64,000 nucleotides of DNA from Escherichia phage dune: sequence record MN850636.1; one strand, 5' to 3'. A program made the position numbers and the translations under genes. A model generated the notes under the pieces. The model did no database searches and had not been told where the DNA came from. It saw nothing but the letters and a program-made list of their open reading frames with translations. Shown here in pieces: positions 2,202-55,558 of the stretch. Every line of letters begins with the position of its first letter. Position 1 is the stretch's first letter.

Positions 2202-4407
2202 CTTGCAGTGCAGATTTACCTACACCAATGCGACTGTTAAGGTAGTACATGGTTTTCATACCTACTGAGTTGGCATAAATCATGTACTTCAAAGCTTGAG
2301 CCAATGATACCTTCTTAGACTTTGCATAGTCAACATAGAAATCTGAAGAGATAGCTTGACCAGTGAACTTTTGAACAATTGCATAACAATCAATCAGGTC
2401 AAAGGTGTCAATATCCCAAGCAATTTCATAGACATACTTCAACTCTTCGTAATCTGGAACAATAAACAGTACGTTACCAGTTGCAGACTTTTTAGTTAAA
2501 ATAAAGTCACGAATTGGATACAAGCCGTTTGTCGTATTAGTTGCCAGTGAAGAACTCTCATTAGGCATGTAAGCTTCTAATACAGAGTTACGGATTCCAC
2601 CATTTTCTTTAATACGTTGTGCTAAGTCATCCCAATCATAACGAAGTTTTGCATCATGCTTCTCATCAATCTTCCTGTTAGCTGTCTTTGGAGGAACCCA
2701 ACCTTCAGGATATTTAGTGAACTGCATATACTCAGGCACACCACGTTCTTTAGCAAGTCTTAAAGAAGCTTCGTGTAAGTAGTAAGAGTGCATTTCAGCA
2801 AGCTCATGAAGCTTCGTCTTACCTGCTCTTGAAGAGTAGTTCACGTAGTTTTTCGCAAGGTAATGAGCCACATTTGTAAGGCCAATCCCAACAGAACGAC
2901 GCTTCTGAACATGGTTACGCATCGACGGATACGGATAATCCATAAGGTCAATAACGGAGTCAACCATTGCAAGAGCATAATAAGCAACGTCAGCGTATTC
3001 ATCTTCTGAAATTCTCCCTGCAACCAAACTAGCTAGGAAGCAAAGAGCTACCTCACCATCCTCTTTCACAGCGTCATCTCTGTAAAGGTCTGTCTCTTTC
3101 TCAAAGCCATACACTGGCAACACAATTTCCATACAAAGATTTGACATCTTCAAAGGTTCTTTAAATGGTGTATGTGTGTTTGCATTATTTGTGAAGAATG
3201 GATACACACGGCCTGTTGCATAACGCTGCTGGATAAACAGTTTAGCAATTTCACGAGCCTTCACACGTCTGTGCTTGACACCTGAATGCACTGCATGACC
3301 AACTGCCATAGCAAACTCATCAGCAGATGCTGTGTAGAACATGTCATAGAGTTTTGGTGCATCTTTGTAAGAGAATAACAACCAATCTGTATCATACTGA
3401 ACACACTGCCAGAAATAATCGTTTGTGCCGAATGAGTAGTCCATCTCGTTAATACGTTTAGAAGGAACCGTTGTAGGGTGCTTCAAACGCAGTAAATCTT
3501 CAATCTGCGGGTCTAGAGCAGTGTAGAAGTTATTAGCTGAACCACCACGACTCTTCTGTTTGTTTGCCTCTACAGATGAACGTACAAGCTTGTAATAAGG
3601 TAGCTTACCCATGTGCTCAATAGTATTTTGACGGATACCATCACCAATAGTGCGAGTCTCCATCAGCATACCAATACCAGCTTGCTTTGTGGTCATATCA
3701 TAAGCAACCTTTGCAGCAATACCGAGAGACTCAGCAGTATCATTTGCCTTAATCAAACAGCATGACGCATAACCTGATTTAGTTGCTCTTAAACCATTTA
3801 AATAAGGCGTAGGAGCGTTAATCTTCAGGTCGGATAGGTAAGTGTACAGTTTGATAACATCTTGCAGTCTACGGTGCTTTGGTTGCTTCTCAAAGGCTTT
3901 CATAGCCATACCCATAAACATAAATTGTGGTGACTCAAACAGTCTTCCCGTTTTAATATCACGGATGCCGTACTTGTCTCTGAACTGTTTCAAGACTGCA
4001 TAACCGTAAGAGATATCTTTTGAGTGCACGATGTAACCTTGCAGGTATTCAAGCTCTTCCTGTGAATAATCCATCTTCTCCCAAAGTCCTGCTCTCTCCA
4101 TATTTTTAACGAAGGTAATCAGCGTAGGAACCTTAGTAAAGCCTCCAAAGGCTTCTTTGTAGATAATCCCTAGAAGTAGCCGTCCAGCCATATCTGAGTA
4201 CTCTTGAGTTTGTTTATCAACACAAACATCAATCATGGCTTGGTGCATCTCTTTTGTGGTGCATCCTTCATAAACACGTTTCATAGCTTCCATAGTGACT
4301 TCTGACCAGATAATTCCACGTTTATCTGCCCATGATGCCCACTTATTCAGTCTTTCTGGGTCAAAGCTTACTACTGTACCATTTGATTTTTTAATTGTCT
4401 TAATCAT
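2173..4407 (-). CDS. nrdA: Ribonucleotide reductase class I large (alpha) subunit
   Basis: 744 aa; N-terminal ATP-cone (TVVSFDPERLNKW), active-site NxCxE motif (SNLCMEIVLP), C-terminal Cys pair (CEGCGV). Confidence 0.92.
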   Translation of the reverse strand: MIKTIKKSNGTVVSFDPERLNKWASWADKRGIIWSEVTMEAMKRVYEGCTTKEMHQAMIDVCVDKQTQEYSDMAGRLLLGIIYKEAFGGFTKVPTLITFVKNMERAGLWEKMDYSQEELEYLQGYIVHSKDISYGYAVLKQFRDKYGIRDIKTGRLFESPQFMFMGMAMKAFEKQPKHRRLQDVIKLYTYLSDLKINAPTPYLNGLRATKSGYASCCLIKANDTAESLGIAAKVAYDMTTKQAGIGMLMETRTIGDGIRQNTIEHMGKLPYYKLVRSSVEANKQKSRGGSANNFYTALDPQIEDLLRLKHPTTVPSKRINEMDYSFGTNDYFWQCVQYDTDWLLFSYKDAPKLYDMFYTASADEFAMAVGHAVHSGVKHRRVKAREIAKLFIQQRYATGRVYPFFTNNANTHTPFKEPLKMSNLCMEIVLPVYGFEKETDLYRDDAVKEDGEVALCFLASLVAGRISEDEYADVAYYALAMVDSVIDLMDYPYPSMRNHVQKRRSVGIGLTNVAHYLAKNYVNYSSRAGKTKLHELAEMHSYYLHEASLRLAKERGVPEYMQFTKYPEGWVPPKTANRKIDEKHDAKLRYDWDDLAQRIKENGGIRNSVLEAYMPNESSSLATNTTNGLYPIRDFILTKKSATGNVLFIVPDYEELKYVYEIAWDIDTFDLIDCYAIVQKFTGQAISSDFYVDYAKSKKVSLAQALKYMIYANSVGMKTMYYLNSRIGVGKSALQDAYCEGCGV

Positions 4408-21259: not shown

Positions 21260-21336
21260 ACAGGGTCTTTTAATGAGGTACGGCGCGGTTAGGTAAGGTC
21301 TGGTAGGGTAGGGTGAGGTTTGGTAAAGTGCGGGTA
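21260..21336 (+). repeat. GT-rich tract (region B, tract 1)
   Basis: ggttaggtaaggtctggtagggtagggtgaggtttggtaaagtgcgggtag. Confidence 0.6.
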
Positions 21337-21338
21337 GT

Positions 21339-21366
21339 TAATCGGAGCTACATTAAAATCCGATTA
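21339..21366 (+). repeat. Hairpin family member: TAATCGGA-gctacattaaaa-TCCGATTA
   Basis: 8-bp stem; loop identical to 19957-19982. Confidence 0.65.
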
Positions 21367-21404
21367 CATCACTTAAGAGTCTTCTAAGAGGGTTTTTAAG
21401 TGAT
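21366..21404. repeat. 10-bp inverted repeat CATCACTTAA(N19)TTAAGTGATG (copy 2)
   Basis: Palindrome seen directly. Confidence 0.6.
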
Positions 21405-21406
21405 GT

Positions 21407-21470
21407 TCGGTAGGGTCTGGTAGGGTAAGGTCTGGTCTGGTAGGGTCTGGTAGGGTGAGGTATGGGTAGT
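21407..21470 (+). repeat. GT-rich tract with tandem GGTCTGGTAGGGT units (region B, tract 2)
   Basis: tagggtctggtagggtaaggtctggtctggtagggtctggtagggtgaggtatgg. Confidence 0.65.
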
Positions 21471-50237: not shown

Positions 50238-50267
50238 ATTTAAGGACTCTCGTAAGAACCCTTAGAA

Positions 50268-50344
50268 GTGGCAGCGGCATAAGGATTTGAACCTTAATCG
50301 GACAGCTTCAGAGACTGTTGCATTGCCAGTTATGCTATACCGCT
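50268..50344 (-). tRNA. tRNA-Gln (anticodon CTG)
   Basis: Anticodon loop cuCUGaa. Confidence 0.65.
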
Positions 50345-51244: not shown

Positions 51245-51300
51245 GTGAAAGAGGTCTGAAGTTGTGCCGCTAACTCAACTCCGTGGAATTTGTTACGGTC
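51245..51300 (-). repeat. Member of GGTCTTC-motif structured repeat family (CTGAAG...CTTCAG stem)
   Basis: Shares ACGGTCTTCAG 3' motif with 53148-53812 copies. Confidence 0.4.
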
Positions 51301-51339
51301 TTCAGTTGACACCAGCGGTCTTTCACTTGACCTCTGAAT

Positions 51340-51415
51340 TGGTGCTCCCACAAGGATTCGAACCCTGATAAGTTGCTTACAAGGCAACCGTAATAGCCAA
51401 TTATACGATAGGAGC
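51340..51415 (-). tRNA. tRNA-Thr (anticodon TGT)
   Basis: Anticodon loop cuUGUaa, perfect anticodon stem. Confidence 0.7.
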
Positions 51416-51422
51416 ATTAATT

Positions 51423-51497
51423 TGGAGCATCCAGAGGGAATCGAACCCTCAACCTCAGTTTGGAAGACTGTAATTTTCCCGTTTAAACTATGGATGC
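51423..51497 (-). tRNA. tRNA-Gly (anticodon TCC)
   Basis: Anticodon loop cuUCCaa; perfect acceptor and T-arm. Confidence 0.7.
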
Positions 51498-51503
51498 ACT
51501 AAT

Positions 51504-51578
51504 TGGTGGAGTCACTGAGAATTGAACTCAGTTCCCAAGTTTGCAAAACTCGAATTTTAACCATATAAACTATGACCC
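51504..51578 (-). tRNA. tRNA-Ala (anticodon TGC)
   Basis: Anticodon loop uuUGCaa; G3:U70 pair in acceptor stem (alanine identity element). Confidence 0.8.
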
Positions 51579-51584
51579 CATTTT

Positions 51585-51660
51585 TGGTACAGGTGGAGGG
51601 AATTGAACCCATCGTCTTACTGATTAAGAGTCAGCCGCATAACCATTTTGCTACACCTGC
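51585..51660 (-). tRNA. tRNA-Lys (anticodon CTT)
   Basis: Anticodon loop cuCUUaa; paralog of 52809-52884. Confidence 0.6.
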
Positions 51661-51667
51661 ATTAATT

Positions 51668-51745
51668 TGGTAGGAGACAAGGGATTCGAACCCTCAAACA
51701 CCAACTTCTAAGGATGGTAGGTTTACCAATTACCGTCAATCTCCC
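51668..51745 (-). tRNA. tRNA with Leu anticodon TAG, short variable loop
   Basis: Anticodon loop cuUAGaa; acceptor 7 bp incl. 2 G-U; A73. Confidence 0.5.
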
Positions 51746-52001
51746 ATTAAATCTTTTTAGAGAACTTCTAAGAACCTGAGCAACAAGGTTCCACAACAAG
51801 CGACTAATAACCTTAGAAGCCCTCTAAAAAGACCTAAATAGGTCTTTGCATAGTCTTGTTTAATCCGGTGACTAGAACCTTTGGAGAGCTTGATATTATC
51901 TCTTCTCCGTGACACCTACTAGGTGCTTTGACAGTGTACGACAATACACGAGGGATAAACCGACAATGCGAACAAGCATGGACGGAGTAAATCTTATTAG
52001 G

Positions 52002-52089
52002 CGGTAAGTAAAGGAGTCGAACCCTCACCGTATCTCTACAGTGGCAACAGTTTTCAAGACTGTTTGGCTGCCATTAGCCGCTACCTACC
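52002..52089 (-). tRNA. tRNA-Ser (anticodon TGA), long variable arm
   Basis: 88 nt; perfect anticodon stem acagu/acugu, loop cuUGAaa. Confidence 0.7.
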
Positions 52090-52102
52090 CCTAATAAGAC
52101 TT

Positions 52103-52185
52103 TGGCATGGGACGGAGGAGTTGAACCCCTTTGAAACGGTTTTGGAGGCCGTTGCTCATGCCTTAGAGTCTTAACATCGTCCCAT
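52103..52185 (-). tRNA. tRNA-like, possibly Trp (anticodon CCA), enlarged D region
   Basis: Perfect 7-bp acceptor, T-arm, loop cuCCAaa; atypical 83 nt. Confidence 0.45.
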
Positions 52186-52327
52186 ATTATAATTCGAAGC
52201 TTACCCTGTTATCTCAACACTGTCAAGCTTCTTCTCAGATTATTTACATGTTCTGGAAAACATGAGATACAGACCACCTCCCTACAGGAAGACCCGCTAA
52301 GGCCGTCTAAGTAATCTGCTAACTATT

Positions 52328-52403
52328 TGGTACACCCTACAGGATTCGAACCTGTAACTAACGATTTAGAAGACCGTTGCTCTATCCAATTGAACTAAGG
52401 GTG
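52328..52403 (-). tRNA. tRNA-Arg (anticodon TCT)
   Basis: Anticodon loop cuUCUaa; perfect T-arm. Confidence 0.7.
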
Positions 52404-52650
52404 CATTATCTTTAAAGACTCTCTTAGAAAGCCCTTAAAGATGCCCACCTTATTAATCATACCGTGGGCGAGTACGCCAAATTCTTTGATGAGGGATTGG
52501 AAGACCTCACTGGTGTTTAGCCTATCAAGCTACTGCCAGAAAAACATTGTCGTTTGCATTTATTTTAAATTTGCAAAATAGACGCTACGCAACGAAAACT
52601 AAGGTTACTATAAAGTAGTCACATCTCAATGTCAACAACTTTATTGAAAT

Positions 52651-52726
52651 TGGTACTGGTAGGTGGAATCGAACCACCGATGTTCCCTTATCAGGGGAGT
52701 GTTATAACCTTCTTAACTATACCAGC
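52651..52726 (-). tRNA. tRNA-Ile (anticodon GAT)
   Basis: Anticodon loop cuGAUaa. Confidence 0.65.
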
Positions 52727-52727
52727 T

Positions 52728-52804
52728 TGGAGGTTCAGATGGGAATCGAACCCACATTCATAGGGCTTATGAGACCCTTGCATTACCTTATCTGCGACTG
52801 AACC
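52728..52804 (-). tRNA. tRNA-Met (anticodon CAT)
   Basis: Anticodon loop cuCAUaa; perfect acceptor. Confidence 0.65.
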
Positions 52805-52808
52805 ATAT

Positions 52809-52884
52809 TGGTAGAAGTGGAGGGATTCGAACCCATCGCCTGTCAGATTAAAAGTCTGCCGCATCACCATTCTGCTACACTTCC
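52809..52884 (-). tRNA. tRNA-Lys (anticodon TTT)
   Basis: Anticodon loop cuUUUaa. Confidence 0.6.
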
Positions 52885-52892
52885 ATTAAATT

Positions 52893-53020
52893 ATCTTTGT
52901 AGATAAGCTACCCAGACTTGCTTAAGGTCTGTAGCGATGTGCCTTTTTTGGGTTTAAATCTAGAATTTACCCATTCACCCTTTGTGGTCGCATACTCACA
53001 AGTAAGCTTAATAACTTATC
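52893..53020. repeat. Structured tRNA-free element bounded by perfect 13-bp inverted repeat CTTTGTAGATAAG / CTTATCTACAAAG
   Basis: Inverted repeat at 52895-52907 and 53006-53018 enclosing CAGAC/GTCTG hairpin. Confidence 0.5.
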
Positions 53021-53085
53021 TACAAAGGTAATTACCAGACCGTTGTTTATCATCTTAAGTGCTACCATTACACCAACTCGACATC

Positions 53086-53160
53086 TGCCGAGTGAAGGAA
53101 TCGAACCTTCGCCTTTTCTTTACCAGAGAAATAGATTGTTTAAGTTTTGCTGTAAACGGC
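53086..53160 (-). pseudogene. Degenerate tRNA-like gene (Thr-like, anticodon GGT) with weak acceptor stem
   Basis: Perfect T-arm (gaagg-TTCGATT-ccttc) and anticodon arm (uuucu-cuGGUaa-agaaa) but only 5/7 acceptor pairs and poor D-arm. Confidence 0.4.
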
Positions 53161-53169
53161 CTTCTGTAA

Positions 53170-53250
53170 ATTTGTTGAGCCAGACCAAGTTTTAAATTTT
53201 CAAAATTAAATTGGCTTGAAAATATCATACGTTCTTGCTGAATTTGGTCT
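53170..53250 (-). ncRNA. Structured repeat element copy 1 (AGACCAA...TTGGTCT stem; conserved TTGCTGAAtttGGTCTTCTG)
   Basis: 7-bp terminal stem; shared 30-nt motif with copies at 53584 and 53738. Confidence 0.45.
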
Positions 53251-53321
53251 TCTGCTCCTTTAAAGAATACTCGTAAGAACTCTTTAAGGGAGGGGCTAAA
53301 TAGCCCTCTCAAAATTGGCGG

Positions 53322-53398
53322 CTACGATGAGACTTGAACTCACATCATCTCCCGTGACAGGGGAGTATTTTCTCCAGTTAAACTACATAGCCTTTATT
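53322..53398 (-). tRNA. tRNA-Asp (anticodon GTC)
   Basis: Perfect anticodon stem cuccc/gggag, loop cuGUCac. Confidence 0.7.
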
Positions 53399-53403
53399 GG
53401 TGT

Positions 53404-53491
53404 GCCGTGTAGGAGTCGAACCTACCGAGTCTCAATGACAAGGGATTTACAGTCCCCACCGCTACCATCTACGGGATAACGACACATTTAA
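53404..53491 (-). tRNA. tRNA-Tyr (anticodon GTA), long variable arm
   Basis: 88 nt; loop cuGUAaa; perfect T-arm. Confidence 0.65.
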
Positions 53492-53499
53492 TTTGGCGG

Positions 53500-53576
53500 T
53501 TAGTCAGGGATTCGAACCCTGTGCCATTCGCTTAACAGGCGACCGCACATACCTTATGTGCTTCCTAACCTTAATA
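53500..53576 (-). tRNA. tRNA-Asn (anticodon GTT)
   Basis: Anticodon loop cuGUUaa; perfect T-arm caggg/ccctg. Confidence 0.65.
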
Positions 53577-53583
53577 CATTGCC

Positions 53584-53646
53584 AGACCGTGTTTTTTCTT
53601 TTATCCGCAAAAAAGTATTTTGTTGCTGAATACGGTCTTCTGCAAA
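53584..53646 (-). ncRNA. Structured repeat element copy 2 (AGACCGT...ACGGTCT stem)
   Basis: Stem carries compensatory AA/TT -> GT/AC change relative to copies 1 and 3. Confidence 0.45.
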
Positions 53647-53648
53647 AT

Positions 53649-53725
53649 TGGAGGCGGGTGCAGGAGTCGAACCTGCCGATACCATGCTAATGAGACATGT
53701 GAGACGCCCTTTCTCTATACCCGCA
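53649..53725 (-). tRNA. tRNA with anticodon CAT (second Met-type; initiator or Ile2 possible)
   Basis: Loop cuCAUua; U1:C72 mismatch at top of acceptor stem. Confidence 0.55.
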
Positions 53726-53737
53726 ATTCTTAATGAC

Positions 53738-53812
53738 CAGACCAAATCTCTTCTTTGTCCGATTTACCTTCAGATGAATAAGATTAAGTTTGCTGTAATT
53801 GGTCTTCTGTCA
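53738..53812 (-). ncRNA. Structured repeat element copy 3 (AGACCAA...TTGGTCT stem)
   Basis: 7-bp terminal stem, conserved TTGCTGTAATTGGTCTTCTG. Confidence 0.45.
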
Positions 53813-53981: not shown

Positions 53982-54142
53982 AACTTTTCAAACTCTATGT
54001 AACCACTTTAACATTATTTTTTAGTGGTTGTCAAGAACTTTTTTAAAATATTTTTCAGTATCTTAGAAAAGCTCTCATTTCGTTTCTATGTAGAACATAT
54101 TAAAGGGTATTAAACACATTGTCAATACCCTTTTAAAACTTT

Positions 54143-55558
54143 TTACCAGATGTAACGGTCAATCATTACTGCTTTGAGCATTACACTGATTGGGTCAAAC
54201 TTCTCACCACCAAGCAGAGCTTTTAAAGTAGCTGGAGAGAAACCTGATACCATTGCTACACCGTTATCCTTAACAGATACTTCGCAAGTACCATTACGGT
54301 TTGCTAAGTACCAGAATACCAGTTGTGGCATCTTATATCCAGCTTTTTTGTACTTACTACGAATTTCTTCAAAGTTTGTACGACCGTTAGCTCCATCAAC
54401 CTGATTGAACTCCATATCGGAGAAGATGATAAGCTTACTTGGCATATCTTTCTGAGTCAAGTTGTTTCTTTTACCTGTTTCAAGAATGCGGTCAAAAGCT
54501 GCTTGTAAGTTAGTTGAGCCATATTCAACGTGTCGCATCACCTGACGATGACGGTTTCGTAAATCACCGCTCAGTTCGATGAAGTGAGGGTTTGTTGAAT
54601 AAACCATTAACTCATTCTTAAAGCAACCTGTATTGCGTTCTGCTACATACAAGGCAAGTGATACACCAATATCCAGAGCAGTAATGGAGCCAAAATTCAC
54701 CCAAGACATTGAACTTGATACATCAGACATACACAAGATGTTTTCACCTTCTGCCATCCAGTTTGGTAGTGCTTTCCACTGCTCATTAGCAACATCTGCA
54801 TTACCATACTTGACAGATTTAATCACATCGTATGGGTAAACAGCACCAGCGTTAATCTTAGTCTCACCTTTTGATAAGGACTCGATGTAAGCTTTGTAAC
54901 GCTCTCCATCTTTACGGTTAAACAGTTTTTGGTAACGTGCAGCAGCAAGTGAAGGAATCTTACTGTAGTCAATCTTACCAAACTCATTAGCAGAGATTTT
55001 TTGCTCAACTGTATCAGATAGTGCAGACAACAGTGTGCGGTACTCTTTCTCACTCAAGTTGGCAAACTTGCAGAAACGTTTTACAAACTGCTTATGACGT
55101 GGTTTGACTCGTGGTAACCACTTAGCCGCCAAACCTGCTGTTGCAGGGTCTAGTAATGCTGCTTCTAAATGTTTGAAGGCATCTGTCTCGAAACGAGTAC
55201 CTACGAAGATTTTGAAGTCATCAAAACGACCAAGTTCTGCAATCTTATCCATAATGCGAAGAACCTGCATAGACTCTAAAACTTTGTCTTCAATCGCTTG
55301 AAGCAAAACAGTTCTGAAGGCTTTACGCTCACCCATACCTTCTCGTACATCTCGCATATGCAGTAAAATACGAACTGCAACATCAACATCCTCACGCAAA
55401 GCTTTGTAGAACAGGTCTGGTAAGATTTCTACATTGCTACGGCTTGAACCAGCAGCTTTGTAAAAGTCCACAAGAGCAGACATTGATGAAGTATGGTTTA
55501 CAGCACCATTTTCAGTTCGACCTGCATGAAGGTGCGCATGTTTAAATAATTCGCTCAT
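54143..55558 (-). CDS. vWA-domain protein with MIDAS motif (alpha-helical N-domain + C-terminal vWA); TROVE/Ro60-like architecture possible
   Basis: 471 aa; DxSxS MIDAS in CMSDVSSSMSW, downstream LIIFSDMEF beta-strand/Asp; heads the tRNA operon on the same strand. Confidence 0.65.
   Translation of the reverse strand: MSELFKHAHLHAGRTENGAVNHTSSMSALVDFYKAAGSSRSNVEILPDLFYKALREDVDVAVRILLHMRDVREGMGERKAFRTVLLQAIEDKVLESMQVLRIMDKIAELGRFDDFKIFVGTRFETDAFKHLEAALLDPATAGLAAKWLPRVKPRHKQFVKRFCKFANLSEKEYRTLLSALSDTVEQKISANEFGKIDYSKIPSLAAARYQKLFNRKDGERYKAYIESLSKGETKINAGAVYPYDVIKSVKYGNADVANEQWKALPNWMAEGENILCMSDVSSSMSWVNFGSITALDIGVSLALYVAERNTGCFKNELMVYSTNPHFIELSGDLRNRHRQVMRHVEYGSTNLQAAFDRILETGKRNNLTQKDMPSKLIIFSDMEFNQVDGANGRTNFEEIRSKYKKAGYKMPQLVFWYLANRNGTCEVSVKDNGVAMVSGFSPATLKALLGGEKFDPISVMLKAVMIDRYIW

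What the first reader, a model, noticed from the sequence alone, without database searches (positions are those of the whole stretch)
51245..53812. Family of structured repeats interleaved with tRNAs, with compensatory base changes in the stem
Copies at 53170-53250, 53584-53646 and 53738-53812, with a partial copy at 53148-53166, share the 3' motif TTGCTG(T)AA-NNN-GG(T/C)CTTCTG and a 5' CCAGACC arm that pairs with it. Copies 1 and 3 pair AGACCAA with TTGGTCT while copy 2 pairs AGACCGT with ACGGTCT, a double compensatory change that argues for selection on a base-paired stem. Each copy sits immediately upstream, in transcript sense, of a tRNA or tRNA-like gene, and a related GGTCTTCAG element occurs at 51245-51300. 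They could be small stable RNAs, RNase processing signals or tRNA-derived elements.
Basis: seen in the sequence. Interest (0 to 1): 0.7.

Follow-up and report, generated by a model that had tools for sequence, protein, structure and literature searches.

The report
Phage Y-RNA-like partners of Ro60-like protein
The repeats are four small structured RNAs in a Felix O1-like phage that share one conserved "handle" and lie just downstream of a Ro60-like RNA-binding protein gene, so they are most likely that protein's still-unidentified Y-RNA-type partners, and one of them carries a circularly permuted tRNA look-alike.

Summary
On the minus (transcribed) strand the Felixounavirus tRNA cluster holds four full copies, not three plus a fragment. 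The element is: 4-bp lower stem / AGA-vs-G internal loop / 7-8-bp helix AGRCCNN:NNGGUCU / single-stranded UWCAGCAA / variable insert. The stems covary. The "partial" copy (c4) is a complete element, and its insert is a circularly permuted tRNA-like cloverleaf.

The 471-aa ORF 331 nt upstream on the same strand (Pfam DUF2828+DUF7788) models as a Ro60/TROVE ring plus vWA domain. Its top 13 PDB matches are all Ro60 proteins.

The same RNA handle recurs next to DUF2828 genes in dozens of unrelated phage contigs. There were 102 sense-strand hits, 5 antisense and 4 in shuffled sequence. 53 of 84 hits lie within 700 nt of the gene, often where no tRNA gene is nearby.

The architecture parallels bacterial YrlA/YrlB Y RNAs, but the handle sequence is different and reaches no Rfam gathering threshold. 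A 2024 preprint noted the protein's Ro60 fold and its anti-defence role and only guessed that "some tRNAs" might be Y RNAs.

Verdict: new variant of a known kind. The short members also resemble Dictyostelium Class I RNAs; I could not resolve that lead. The 51245-51339 element is not a member.

The parts
53734..53812 (-). Copy c3 (79 nt): UGAC[AGA]AGACCAA-UUACAGCAA-44-nt hairpin insert-UUGGUCU[G]GUCA. It lies between tRNA-Glu and tRNA-Met.
   Evidence: Rfam Dicty_Class_I_RNA 19.7 bits, below threshold
53579..53645 (-). Copy c2 (67 nt): UUGC[AGA]AGACCGU-AUUCAGCAA-32-nt insert-ACGGUCU[G]GCAA. It lies between tRNA-Met and tRNA-Asn.
   Evidence: own covariance model R1 29.4 bits, E 1e-4; Rfam Dicty_Class_I_RNA 26.7 bits, below threshold
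53177..53257 (-). Copy c1 (81 nt): GAGC[AGA]AGACCAA-AUUCAGCAA-46-nt hairpin insert-UUGGUCU[G]GCUC.
   Evidence: Orthologues range from 72 to 77 nt (1-2-nt indels), so the overlapping 85-aa ORF cannot be coding.
53032..53169 (-). Copy c4 (138 nt): the same handle, UUAC[AGA]AGGCCGUU-UACAGCAA ... AACGGUCU[G]GUAA, enclosing a circularly permuted tRNA-like body.
53115..53131 (-). c4 anticodon-arm-like hairpin, the 'V' stem-loop of YrlA: UUUCU-CUGGUAA-AGAAA. The loop is not conserved among orthologues; some have a 6-nt loop and some have C at position 33.
53094..53110 (-). c4 T arm, GAAGG-UUCGAUU-CCUUC. Nearly invariant in the genus.
53076..53093 (-). c4 acceptor-like hairpin: 3' acceptor strand ACUCGGC, linker AGAU, 5' acceptor strand GUCGAGU. 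It occurs in three covarying versions in the genus, one of which has G-CCA in the linker.
53058..53074 (-). c4 D arm, GGUGU-AAUGGUA-GCACU.
54143..55558 (-). 471-aa Ro60-like protein (Pfam DUF2828 + DUF7788; PHROG 850 'RNA-binding protein'), the proposed protein partner. It is the orthologue of Bas63 gp130.
54097..54125 (-). Promoter-like site TTGACA-17-TAATAT between the Ro60-like gene and the first tRNA. This is an inference only.
54005..54034 (-). Second promoter-like site, TTGACA-18-TAAAGT with an extended TG. This is an inference only.

Best explanation
The four elements are small non-coding RNAs of the Y-RNA type. They are the RNA partners of the phage's own Ro60-like protein, which is encoded 331-974 nt upstream on the same strand.

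Shown:
- Each RNA has the same handle: a closing helix with an invariant G-C pair and a mostly A-U first pair; a fixed 10-nt distance from the first helix position to a single-stranded C(A/C)GCAA; and a 3' ...YCU-G.
- Each RNA also has a variable module.
- The handle co-occurs with DUF2828 genes across many phages, in the same orientation and usually within 700 nt.
- In c4 the variable module is a permuted tRNA mimic with the order V hairpin, T arm, acceptor-like hairpin, D arm. That is the domain order of bacterial YrlA. c1-c3 carry simple hairpins, like YrlB.

Inferred:
- The RNAs are released from the tRNA-cluster transcript by host tRNA-processing enzymes: RNase P at the flanking tRNAs, RNase E in the AU-rich spacers, and 3' trimming back to the closing stem.
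- The ring-shaped protein docks on the handle.
- The variable modules bring in or block other factors: a host exoribonuclease as in the Ro60/Y RNA/PNPase machine, tRNA-binding proteins, or tRNA-targeting defence nucleases.
- The complex serves counter-defence. The Bas63 orthologue gp130 was reported to counter the ppl system.
For: - Four exact copies on one strand, against 0.7 expected. Helix covariation holds within the genome and the genus, including G-U intermediates. Partner pairing: 97/99 in Felixounavirus loci against 6/32 in single-match contigs.
- Yersinia phage P778 (protein 53% identical) has 3 elements in which two helix pairs are swapped compensatorily: A-U to G-C and C-G to U-A. 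A 143-kb phage has 5 elements directly after its DUF2828 gene.
- In about 0.99 Mb of DUF2828 loci (83 loci; 79 after removing near-identical Felixounavirus copies) there are 102 sense-strand hits, 5 antisense and 4 in shuffled sequence.
- The sequence core alone is found 200 times in sense and 56 in antisense. 145 of the 200 have a 6-bp partner, against 52 expected.
- The first helix pair was not required by the scanner, yet it is paired in 91% of elements (AU 40, GC 6, UA 2).
- 53 of 84 hits lie within 700 nt of the gene. Seven of the 15 loci checked have no tRNA gene at all.
- The same just-upstream placement is seen in bacterial and MAG contigs from many phyla.
- The protein model has pLDDT 89. 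Its 13 best PDB matches are Ro60/TROVE proteins over the full length, E 2e-8 to 3e-5. The MIDAS residues D279, S281, S283, T349 and D381 are invariant.
- c4 folds as T arm, acceptor hairpin and D arm. Un-permuting it gives ARAGORN tRNA calls.
- Relatives of the tRNA-like members hit Rfam YrlA below threshold, at 21-39 bits.
- Literature: the YrlA architecture and its location beside Ro60 on the same strand (PMC4201824); Bas63 gp130 is Ro60-like and counters ppl, with its Y RNAs not identified (PMC11482910).
Against: - There are no binding, expression or RNA-end data. Everything here is comparative.
- The handle lacks the GNCGAAN0-1G / CGAA motif of known bacterial and phage Y RNAs.
- No Rfam YrlA match was found in the window, even at E <= 10.
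- The protein matches Pfam DUF2828/DUF7788, not TROVE, and has no sequence-level PDB match.
- Only 41 of 79 viral loci gave a hit with the strict scanner. In the most distant bacterial set the strand bias is weaker, 29 against 13.
- The outer (lower) stem is not supported outside the Felix O1 relatives.
- Pairing statistics for helix positions 2-7 in alignment A2 are circular, because the scanner required those pairs.
Confidence: 0.7

Rival explanations
1. The handles are cis-acting binding or regulatory sites on the Ro60-like gene's own transcript, such as autoregulatory UTR elements or stabilisers. On this view they are not free-standing RNAs.
For: In many distant loci the handle lies within 50-400 nt of the gene's start or end, on the same strand.
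Against: In this phage the copies lie 331-974 nt downstream. They are separated from the ORF by promoter-like sites and by tRNAs that must be excised. There are up to five copies per locus, each with a distinct conserved insert, and some inserts are full tRNA-like bodies with an encoded CCA.
Confidence: 0.1
2. They are punctuation or processing signals for maturation of the polycistronic tRNA transcript, for example RNase III, RNase E or RNase P guide hairpins.
For: In this phage they sit between tRNAs, 6-13 nt from the tRNA ends, with AU-rich flanks.
Against: The same handle occurs beside DUF2828 genes in loci without any tRNA gene (L102, L144, L096, L110, L124, L135, L117). Most tRNA junctions in this cluster have no such element. 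A 7-8-bp helix is short for RNase III. The conserved single-stranded CAGCAA and the invariant G-C pair point to sequence-specific recognition.
Confidence: 0.05
3. c4 and its relatives are true circularly permuted tRNA genes. Their transcripts would be cut and re-joined at the handle to give a decoding tRNA, as in Cyanidioschyzon merolae.
For: The 3' half precedes the 5' half, and un-permuted sequences are called as tRNA-Thr(GGU), Tyr(GUA), Asn(GUU) and Arg(ACG). Several relatives encode N-CCA right after the 3' acceptor strand.
Against: Three of the four copies here, and most members elsewhere, carry no tRNA parts. The anticodon loop is not conserved among orthologues; some have a 6-nt loop and some have C33. 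There is no bulge-helix-bulge motif. The junction position varies between members: 26/27, the anticodon loop, or the acceptor stem replaced by the handle. One relative is an ordinary-order tRNA with the handle as an insertion.
Confidence: 0.05
4. They are DNA-level elements: miniature inverted-repeat transposable elements, recombination sites for shuffling tRNA cassettes (attC-like), or promoter cassettes.
For: They have terminal inverted repeats with a variable centre, and the tRNA cluster is modular among relatives.
Against: All copies are on one strand and at syntenic positions across the genus. Hits are strongly biased to the sense strand, 102 against 5. The arms covary through G-U intermediates, which matters only in RNA. 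No copies occur elsewhere in the 64-kb window.
Confidence: 0.03

Closest known systems
Bacterial and phage Y RNAs YrlA / YrlB (Rfam RF02553; Chen et al. 2014, PMC4201824)
   Same: They are encoded beside a Ro60-type protein gene on the same strand. There are several paralogous RNAs sharing one protein-binding module. One paralogue carries a tRNA mimic in the order V hairpin, T arm, acceptor-like hairpin, D arm, with T and D arms nearly invariant and the acceptor-like stem covarying. [quoted passage not shown]
   Different: The handle sequence is different: an AGR... helix plus UWCAGCAA plus CUG, instead of GNCGAAN0-1G. There is no RF02553 match in the window, and relatives score only 21-39 bits against a threshold of 69. 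The partner protein is the divergent DUF2828/DUF7788 family, not Pfam TROVE. The V element of c4 is a full anticodon-arm look-alike.
Thermus phage phiLo Ro60 with Yrl1 and Yrl2 (PMC12135203; PDB 9KOP, 9L5Y)
   Same: It is a phage-encoded Ro60 homologue with phage-encoded Y-like RNAs next to the gene. That protein is among the best structural matches of the protein here.
   Different: The phiLo RNAs were recognised by the CGAA motif in an internal bulge. They lie upstream of the gene and have no tRNA cluster context.
Dictyostelid Class I RNAs (Rfam RF01414; Kjellin et al. 2021, PMC7919456)
   Same: [quoted passage not shown] The conserved single-stranded motif CCUUACAGCAA lies directly 3' of the 5' stem strand; the phage has (N)UWCAGCAA. 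The 3' end is ...CUG. The rest is variable and AU-rich, and the size is about 60 nt. RF01414 is the recurrent best Rfam match of the short phage members, 5 hits at 19.7-30.7 bits.
   Different: All scores are below the gathering score of 41.5. The spacing is one nucleotide shorter. The phage RNAs are cut out of operon transcripts rather than transcribed from DUSE promoters. Class I RNAs were reported as unique to Dictyostelia, and their known direct binder is an RRM protein (Rnp1A). Whether Dictyostelia have a DUF2828 protein could not be tested here.
Circularly permuted tRNA genes (Cyanidioschyzon merolae type) and two-piece tmRNA from permuted ssrA genes
   Same: The T arm and 3' acceptor strand are encoded upstream of the 5' acceptor strand and D arm, joined by a short linker.
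   Different: There is no bulge-helix-bulge junction, no conserved decoding loop and no tag reading frame. Most family members lack tRNA parts.
T4 stable RNAs C and D (rnaC, rnaD) in the T4 tRNA cluster (from my own knowledge)
   Same: They are small stable non-tRNA RNAs embedded in a phage tRNA operon, and their function is long unknown.
   Different: I know of no sequence similarity or associated Ro60-like gene. This was not tested here.

Membership tests
Y RNA (YrlA/YrlB type) | Encoded close to a Ro60 orthologue, on the same strand | tested here: met
   The copies start 331-974 nt downstream of the Ro60-like ORF on the minus strand. The protein is Ro60-like by fold. The linkage holds across phage loci.
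Y RNA (YrlA/YrlB type) | 5' Ro60-binding motif GNCGAAN0-1G (CGAA) | tested here: not met
   The 5' ends read (G/A)CAGAAGRCC. The wider consensus is WAAGRNNNN..UWCAGCAA, with no CGAA.
Y RNA (YrlA/YrlB type) | tRNA-like domain: T arm, acceptor-like stem-loop, D arm (YrlA only) | tested here: met
   Met for c4. It is absent from c1-c3, as it is from YrlB.
Y RNA (YrlA/YrlB type) | Reaches the Rfam RF02553 gathering score (69 bits) | tested here: not met
   No RF02553 match in the window at E <= 10. Relatives in L122, L139 and L141 score 21-39 bits.
Y RNA (YrlA/YrlB type) | Physically bound by the Ro60 protein | not testable with these tools
   Needs immunoprecipitation or gel-shift assays.
Ro60 / TROVE protein (the partner) | HEAT-repeat ring plus vWA domain with a MIDAS site | tested here: met
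   The AlphaFold2 model has pLDDT 89. Foldseek gives full-length matches to Ro60 structures, TM 0.44-0.65 for twelve of the thirteen (0.36 for 9nen). D-x-S-x-S...T...D is invariant.
Ro60 / TROVE protein (the partner) | Sequence membership (Pfam TROVE PF05731, or a PDB Ro60 match by sequence) | tested here: not met
   Pfam gives only DUF2828 and DUF7788. phmmer against PDB finds nothing relevant.
Dictyostelid Class I RNA (RF01414) | Short covarying stem joining the 5' and 3' ends, with an invariant first G | tested here: met
   The G-C pair is invariant and the other helix pairs vary with compensation. The G was imposed by the scanner but is also present in every copy found without it.
Dictyostelid Class I RNA (RF01414) | 11-nt motif CCUUACAGCAA adjacent to the 5' stem strand | tested here: inconclusive
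   8-9 of the 11 positions are shared (UWCAGCAA), in the same place but with spacing one nucleotide shorter (alignments).
Dictyostelid Class I RNA (RF01414) | Reaches the Rfam gathering score (41.5 bits) | tested here: not met
   Scores are 26.7 and 19.7 bits in the window, and 30.7, 24.4 and 24.3 bits in L102, L136 and L122.
Circularly permuted tRNA gene | 3' half upstream of the 5' half, and a cloverleaf once un-permuted | tested here: met
   Met for c4: ARAGORN calls tRNA-Thr(GGU) on rotated sequences.
Circularly permuted tRNA gene | Bulge-helix-bulge junction and a conserved functional anticodon loop | tested here: not met
   The junction is a 3-nt/1-nt internal loop plus a 7-8-bp helix. 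The loop varies among orthologues, with 6-nt and C33 forms.

The most novel reading that the evidence does not exclude
The handle (a G-started helix joining the RNA ends, UUACAGCAA, and a 3' CUG) is the recognition element of the whole DUF2828 branch of Ro60-like proteins. That branch occurs in phages, bacteria, giant viruses and some eukaryotes. On this reading the so-far orphan Class I RNAs of dictyostelid amoebae are the eukaryotic counterpart of these phage RNAs, that is, Y-like RNAs of a Ro60-like protein. In phages the handle would also be grafted onto tRNA bodies in several topologies: permuted at 26/27, permuted in the anticodon loop, replacing the acceptor stem, or inserted into a normal tRNA. 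That would make tRNA decoys or adaptors, some with a genuine CCA end after RNase P cleavage.
Probability: 0.2. Interest if true: 0.9.

Novelty: new variant of a known kind. Interest (0 to 1): 0.78.

Why it matters
Ro60/Y RNA particles are known in animals, some bacteria and a few phages. Here they would extend to a large, divergent protein family (DUF2828) that is common in phages and annotated as unknown.

The orthologue of the protein in phage Bas63 was reported to counter a bacterial defence system, but its RNA partners were only guessed at. These four RNAs give concrete, testable candidates and a simple sequence-plus-structure signature for finding such RNAs in other phages.

The permuted and grafted tRNA look-alikes suggest that phages use tRNA mimicry together with a Ro60-like ring. 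That is relevant to the many host defences that cut tRNAs.

The resemblance to Dictyostelium Class I RNAs, if it reflects homology, would point to a protein partner for an RNA class whose mechanism has been open since 2004.

A practical point: several GenBank records annotate small hypothetical ORFs over these RNAs, and those annotations are probably spurious.

Tried and rejected
- Self-cleaving ribozyme or riboswitch. I considered hammerhead, HDV-like/theta, twister, pistol and hatchet. Rfam gave no such match even at E <= 10, and the conserved cores are absent by eye.
- Covariance model of the handle (R1, from the chimeric alignment A2). It recovered only the short-insert copy c2 (29.4 bits), because long inserts are penalised. 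I did not use it for discovery and wrote a scanner with antisense and shuffle controls instead.
- Outer (lower) stem as a general feature. It is convincing in Felix O1 relatives but not above control across all loci: 26% against 20% have at least 4 bp.
- Membership of the 51245-51339 element. Rejected: it has no CAGCAA and no 3' partner.
- Coding potential of the overlapping ORFs 53055-53312(-) and 53554-53745(-). Rejected, because orthologues differ by 1-2-nt indels.
- Sequence search of the protein against PDB. Nothing was found, and a fold search was needed.
- afdb50 fold search, to ask whether Dictyostelium has a DUF2828 protein. The library was unavailable. Avesson 2011, on the proteins that bind Class I RNAs, is not in the paper library.
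- Promoter and terminator scan. Overall counts are no higher than in shuffles. Only the three perfect TTGACA sites on the minus strand are noted, as an inference.


Full report
**What the window is.** The region belongs to a Felix O1-like phage (Felixounavirus). 342 phage records match at 80-99% identity. ARAGORN finds 25 tRNA genes, all on the minus strand, between 49155 and 53978. Rfam at gathering thresholds reports only tRNAs. I therefore read everything in transcript (minus-strand) sense.

**Checking the observation.**
- The pattern CAGAAGRCCNNNTWCAGCAA occurs exactly four times, all on the minus strand. About 0.7 matches are expected by chance even with three mismatches allowed.
- Each match is followed 40-110 nt later by NNNGGUCUGG.
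- The helix is AGACCAA/UUGGUCU in c1 and c3, AGACCGU/ACGGUCU in c2, and AGGCCGUU/AACGGUCU in c4.
- A second, outer 4-bp stem lies beyond an asymmetric internal loop (5'-AGA / 3'-G). It also differs between copies while staying paired: GAGC/GCUC, UUGC/GCAA, UGAC/GUCA, UUAC/GUAA.
- Refined coordinates: c3 53812-53734, c2 53645-53579, c1 53257-53177, c4 53169-53032.
- The element at 51245-51339 shares only GAAGACCGU with the family. It has neither CAGCAA nor the 3' arm. It is a separate rod-like hairpin, 94-100% conserved in the genus.

**Variation within the genus.** An exact-pattern scan of IMG/VR found multi-copy loci only in 51-94-kb Felixounavirus contigs. These hold 60 distinct element sequences.
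- The helix shows AA:UU and GU:AC forms, and the intermediates GA:UU and AGGCC (G-U).
- The inserts differ by 1-2-nt indels (c1 orthologues span 72-77 nt). That excludes the overlapping mechanical ORFs as genes.
- As a control, contigs that carry the 20-nt 5' motif only once (mostly unrelated contigs) have a 6-bp partner downstream in 6 of 32 cases. Felixounavirus loci have one in 97 of 99.

**c4 is a permuted tRNA mimic.**
- Its minimum-free-energy fold gives, inside the family helix: an anticodon-arm-like hairpin (UUUCU-CUGGUAA-AGAAA), a T arm (GAAGG-UUCGAUU-CCUUC), a hairpin made of a 3' acceptor strand, a 4-nt linker and a 5' acceptor strand (ACUCGGC-AGAU-GUCGAGU), and a D arm.
- The Rfam tRNA model matches the anticodon-arm/T-arm part at 26.8 bits, just under threshold.
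- RNAalifold on 13 orthologues recovers all these helices. The acceptor-like hairpin exists in three versions that all pair: ACUCGGC/GUCGAGU, ACACGU/GCGUGU, and ACCCUUC-GCCAAACA-GAAGGGU. Three of its pairs change on both sides.
- Rotating the sequence into normal tRNA order makes ARAGORN call a full-length tRNA, most often Thr(GGU).
- The anticodon loop is not conserved among orthologues; 6-nt loops and C33 occur. The T and D arms are nearly invariant. That argues against a decoding tRNA.

**The neighbouring protein.**
- The ORF at 55558-54143 (minus strand, 471 aa) ends 331 nt upstream of c3.
- It matches Pfam DUF2828 and DUF7788, and PHROG 850 'RNA-binding protein'. It has no sequence match in PDB.
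- An AlphaFold2 model built from a 36-sequence alignment has mean pLDDT 89.3.
- The 13 best Foldseek matches in PDB are all Ro60/TROVE proteins aligned over the full length: Xenopus and human Ro60, Deinococcus Rsr, and Thermus phage phiLo Ro60. E-values run from 2e-8 to 3e-5. vWA domains follow lower down the list.
- The MIDAS signature D279-x-S281-x-S283 ... T349 ... D381 is invariant in the family alignment.
- A preprint on phage Bas63 (JohannRWettstein, a Felixounavirus; the same locus) reports that gp130, the orthologue, resembles Ro60 structurally and counters the ppl defence system. [quoted passage not shown]

**Comparison with Y RNAs.** Chen et al. 2014 describe bacterial and phage YrlA as a 5' Ro60-binding motif, a V stem-loop, a T stem-loop, an acceptor-like stem-loop and a D stem-loop. 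YrlA is encoded within 4 kb of Ro60 on the same strand. A smaller paralogue, YrlB, shares only the Ro60-binding motif. M. smegmatis YrlA is cut by RNase P and receives CCA (PMC4201824). This is the arrangement seen here: four RNAs share one module, and one of them (c4) has the V-T-acceptor-D order. The motif itself is different; there is no GNCGAAN0-1G.

**Does the link to the protein hold elsewhere?** The protein family is large: 2586 proteins at E <= 1e-5 among the candidates scored.
- Yersinia phage P778 (53% protein identity) has three elements in its tRNA cluster downstream of the gene, of the form GC[ACA]GGACUGU-UUACAGCAA...ACAGUCC[A]GC. The first and fifth helix pairs are swapped compensatorily relative to Felix O1 relatives.
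- A 143-kb phage (51% identity) has five elements directly after the gene. Three of them enclose permuted tRNA-like bodies.
- From these I derived a sequence-plus-structure signature: [A/G/U]G, then 8 nt, then C[A/C]GCAA, with positions 2-7 paired to a segment 22-300 nt downstream.
- In about 0.99 Mb of IMG/VR and related loci, all oriented on the DUF2828 gene, the signature gives 102 hits on the sense strand, 5 on the antisense strand and 4 in shuffled sequence.
- Without any pairing requirement the sequence core occurs 200 times in sense and 56 in antisense. 145 of the 200 have a 6-bp partner, against 52 expected from shuffled downstream sequence. On the antisense strand 9 of 56 do, against 14 expected.
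- 53 of 84 non-redundant hits lie within 700 nt of the gene.
- Seven of the fifteen loci checked have no tRNA gene at all. The association is therefore with the protein gene, not with tRNAs.
- Bacterial and MAG contigs with more distant homologues (33-42% identity) show the handle again, typically 100-400 nt upstream of the gene, in many phyla. The overall strand bias there is weaker, 29 against 13.
- In a 54-sequence alignment of handles the helix pairs show many pair types. Those pairs were required by the scanner. The first pair was not required, yet it is paired in 91% of sequences (AU 40, GC 6, UA 2, GU 1). The G after the 3' strand is at least 90% conserved, also without being required.
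- The outer stem is not supported outside the Felix O1 relatives.

**Variable modules.**
- Of 98 distinct elements, 17 contain a T-arm-like hairpin. Ten distinct elements (11 listed rows, incl. one probable false positive inside the L071 gene) also have an acceptor hairpin followed by a D arm. These have quite different acceptor sequences. Several have N-CCA immediately after the 3' acceptor strand: G-CCA in L121, A-CCA and C-CCA in L122, and G-CCA in one Felixounavirus type.
- Un-permuting gives ARAGORN calls of Tyr(GUA), Asn(GUU) and Arg(ACG).
- Other topologies exist. In L139 8520-8615 the handle helix takes the place of the acceptor stem; Rfam calls the inside a tRNA at 55 bits.
- L065 10566-10683 is an ordinary-order tRNA-Asp-like gene with the handle hairpin inserted between the D and anticodon arms.
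- L065 9832-9981 is permuted within the anticodon loop.
- A handle that is portable between scaffolds fits a protein-docking module better than a processing site.

**Rfam below threshold.**
- The tRNA-like members hit RF02553 (YrlA) at 38.9 and 28.7 bits in L122, 31.4 and 24.5 bits in L139, and 21.3 bits in L141. The gathering score is 69. c4 itself does not hit.
- The short members repeatedly hit RF01414, Dictyostelium Class I RNA: c2 at 26.7 bits, c3 at 19.7, L102 at 30.7, L136 at 24.4 and L122 at 24.3. The gathering score is 41.5.
- The RF01414 consensus is GaUcuC-CUUACAGCAA-variable-GagAuC-UG. That is a G-started 6-bp stem joining the ends, the same UUACAGCAA next to the 5' strand, and the same 3' CUG. 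The spacing is one nucleotide longer.
- Kjellin et al. describe Class I RNAs in these terms and report them as unique to Dictyostelia. Their function is largely unknown and an RRM protein is the known binder (PMC7919456).
- DUF2828 also occurs in mimivirus-like proteins.
- I could not test whether dictyostelids encode DUF2828 proteins. This remains a lead, not a finding.

**Mechanism, with what is shown and what is inferred.**
- Shown: conserved handle; covarying helices; strand-specific and distance-specific linkage to a Ro60-fold protein gene across diverse phages; a YrlA-like tRNA mimic in one paralogue.
- Inferred: transcription from the TTGACA promoter-like sites at 54125 and 54034.
- Inferred: release by host tRNA-processing enzymes.
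- Inferred: docking of the Ro60-like ring on the handle.
- Inferred: a role for the variable modules in recruiting or decoying tRNA-binding or RNA-degrading factors.
- Inferred: a counter-defence role for the complex, extrapolated from the Bas63 gp130 phenotype.

**Rivals.** I considered cis-regulatory sites of the gene's own mRNA, tRNA punctuation signals, true permuted tRNA genes, and DNA-level mobile or recombination elements. Each fails on at least one tested feature (see the rival entries).

**Verdict.** The finding is real. It is most likely the missing Y-RNA-type partner set of a divergent phage Ro60-like protein. The handle motif is not in Rfam and is not described in the literature I could search. 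I class it as a new variant of a known kind, with an unresolved and potentially far-reaching resemblance to dictyostelid Class I RNAs.

Noticed in passing
window 51245-51339 (-): A rod-like hairpin between tRNA-Thr and tRNA-Val (dG -30.7, z -3.0). It is 94-100% identical across Felixounaviruses, more conserved than the inserts of c1-c3. It is not a family member and may be a separate non-coding RNA.
   Followed up: partly
window 52885-53034 (-): A 150-nt region directly 3' of c4 folds into a long hairpin with a roughly 22-bp stem (dG -44.3, z -5.8). It could be an RNase III substrate or another structured RNA.
   Followed up: partly
window 50238-50268, 52405-52450, 53256-53292 (-): A second repeat family of hairpins with a CUUACGAG/UUCUAAGAG-type loop. 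The 52405-52450 copy has 16 perfect pairs (z -4.5). A similar hairpin precedes a handle element in Yersinia phage P778 (L064 10718-10785).
   Followed up: partly
window 52100-52190 (-): An unannotated tRNA-like sequence with a 9-nt anticodon loop (CCUCCAAAA). ARAGORN does not call it, and Rfam gives only 23 bits for tRNA-Sec. Some GenBank relatives label it tRNA-OTHER.
   Followed up: no
L063 (Bas63, MZ501086) 4079-4189 and 4201-4353, + strand of the locus: GenBank annotates small hypothetical proteins (bas63_0138 and 0137) on the strand opposite the tRNAs. They lie over the region that corresponds to the long hairpin, c4 and c1, and are probably spurious calls.
   Followed up: partly
L141 1386-1798 and L086 1317-1767: Phage contigs with DUF2828 genes also carry permuted (two-piece type) tmRNA genes a few kb upstream. 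In L141 the match to alpha_tmRNA scores 100.7 bits.
   Followed up: no
L065 13393-14652: An IS605 OrfB / Cas12f-like TnpB gene sits inside the tRNA region of the 143-kb phage.
   Followed up: no
L136 4253-4443: A sub-threshold group I intron match (40.9 bits against a threshold of 50) just upstream of two tRNA genes and the DUF2828 gene.
   Followed up: no
window 21297-21450 (+): GGTCTGG is over-represented in the window: 19 occurrences against 4.3 expected. Five copies lie within about 150 nt here, presumably a repetitive coding segment unrelated to the RNA family.
   Followed up: no
window 52607-52635 (-): The best sigma-70-like site of the cluster (TTGACA-17-TATAGT, 11/12), just upstream of tRNA-Ile. 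This suggests an internal promoter within the tRNA cluster.
   Followed up: no
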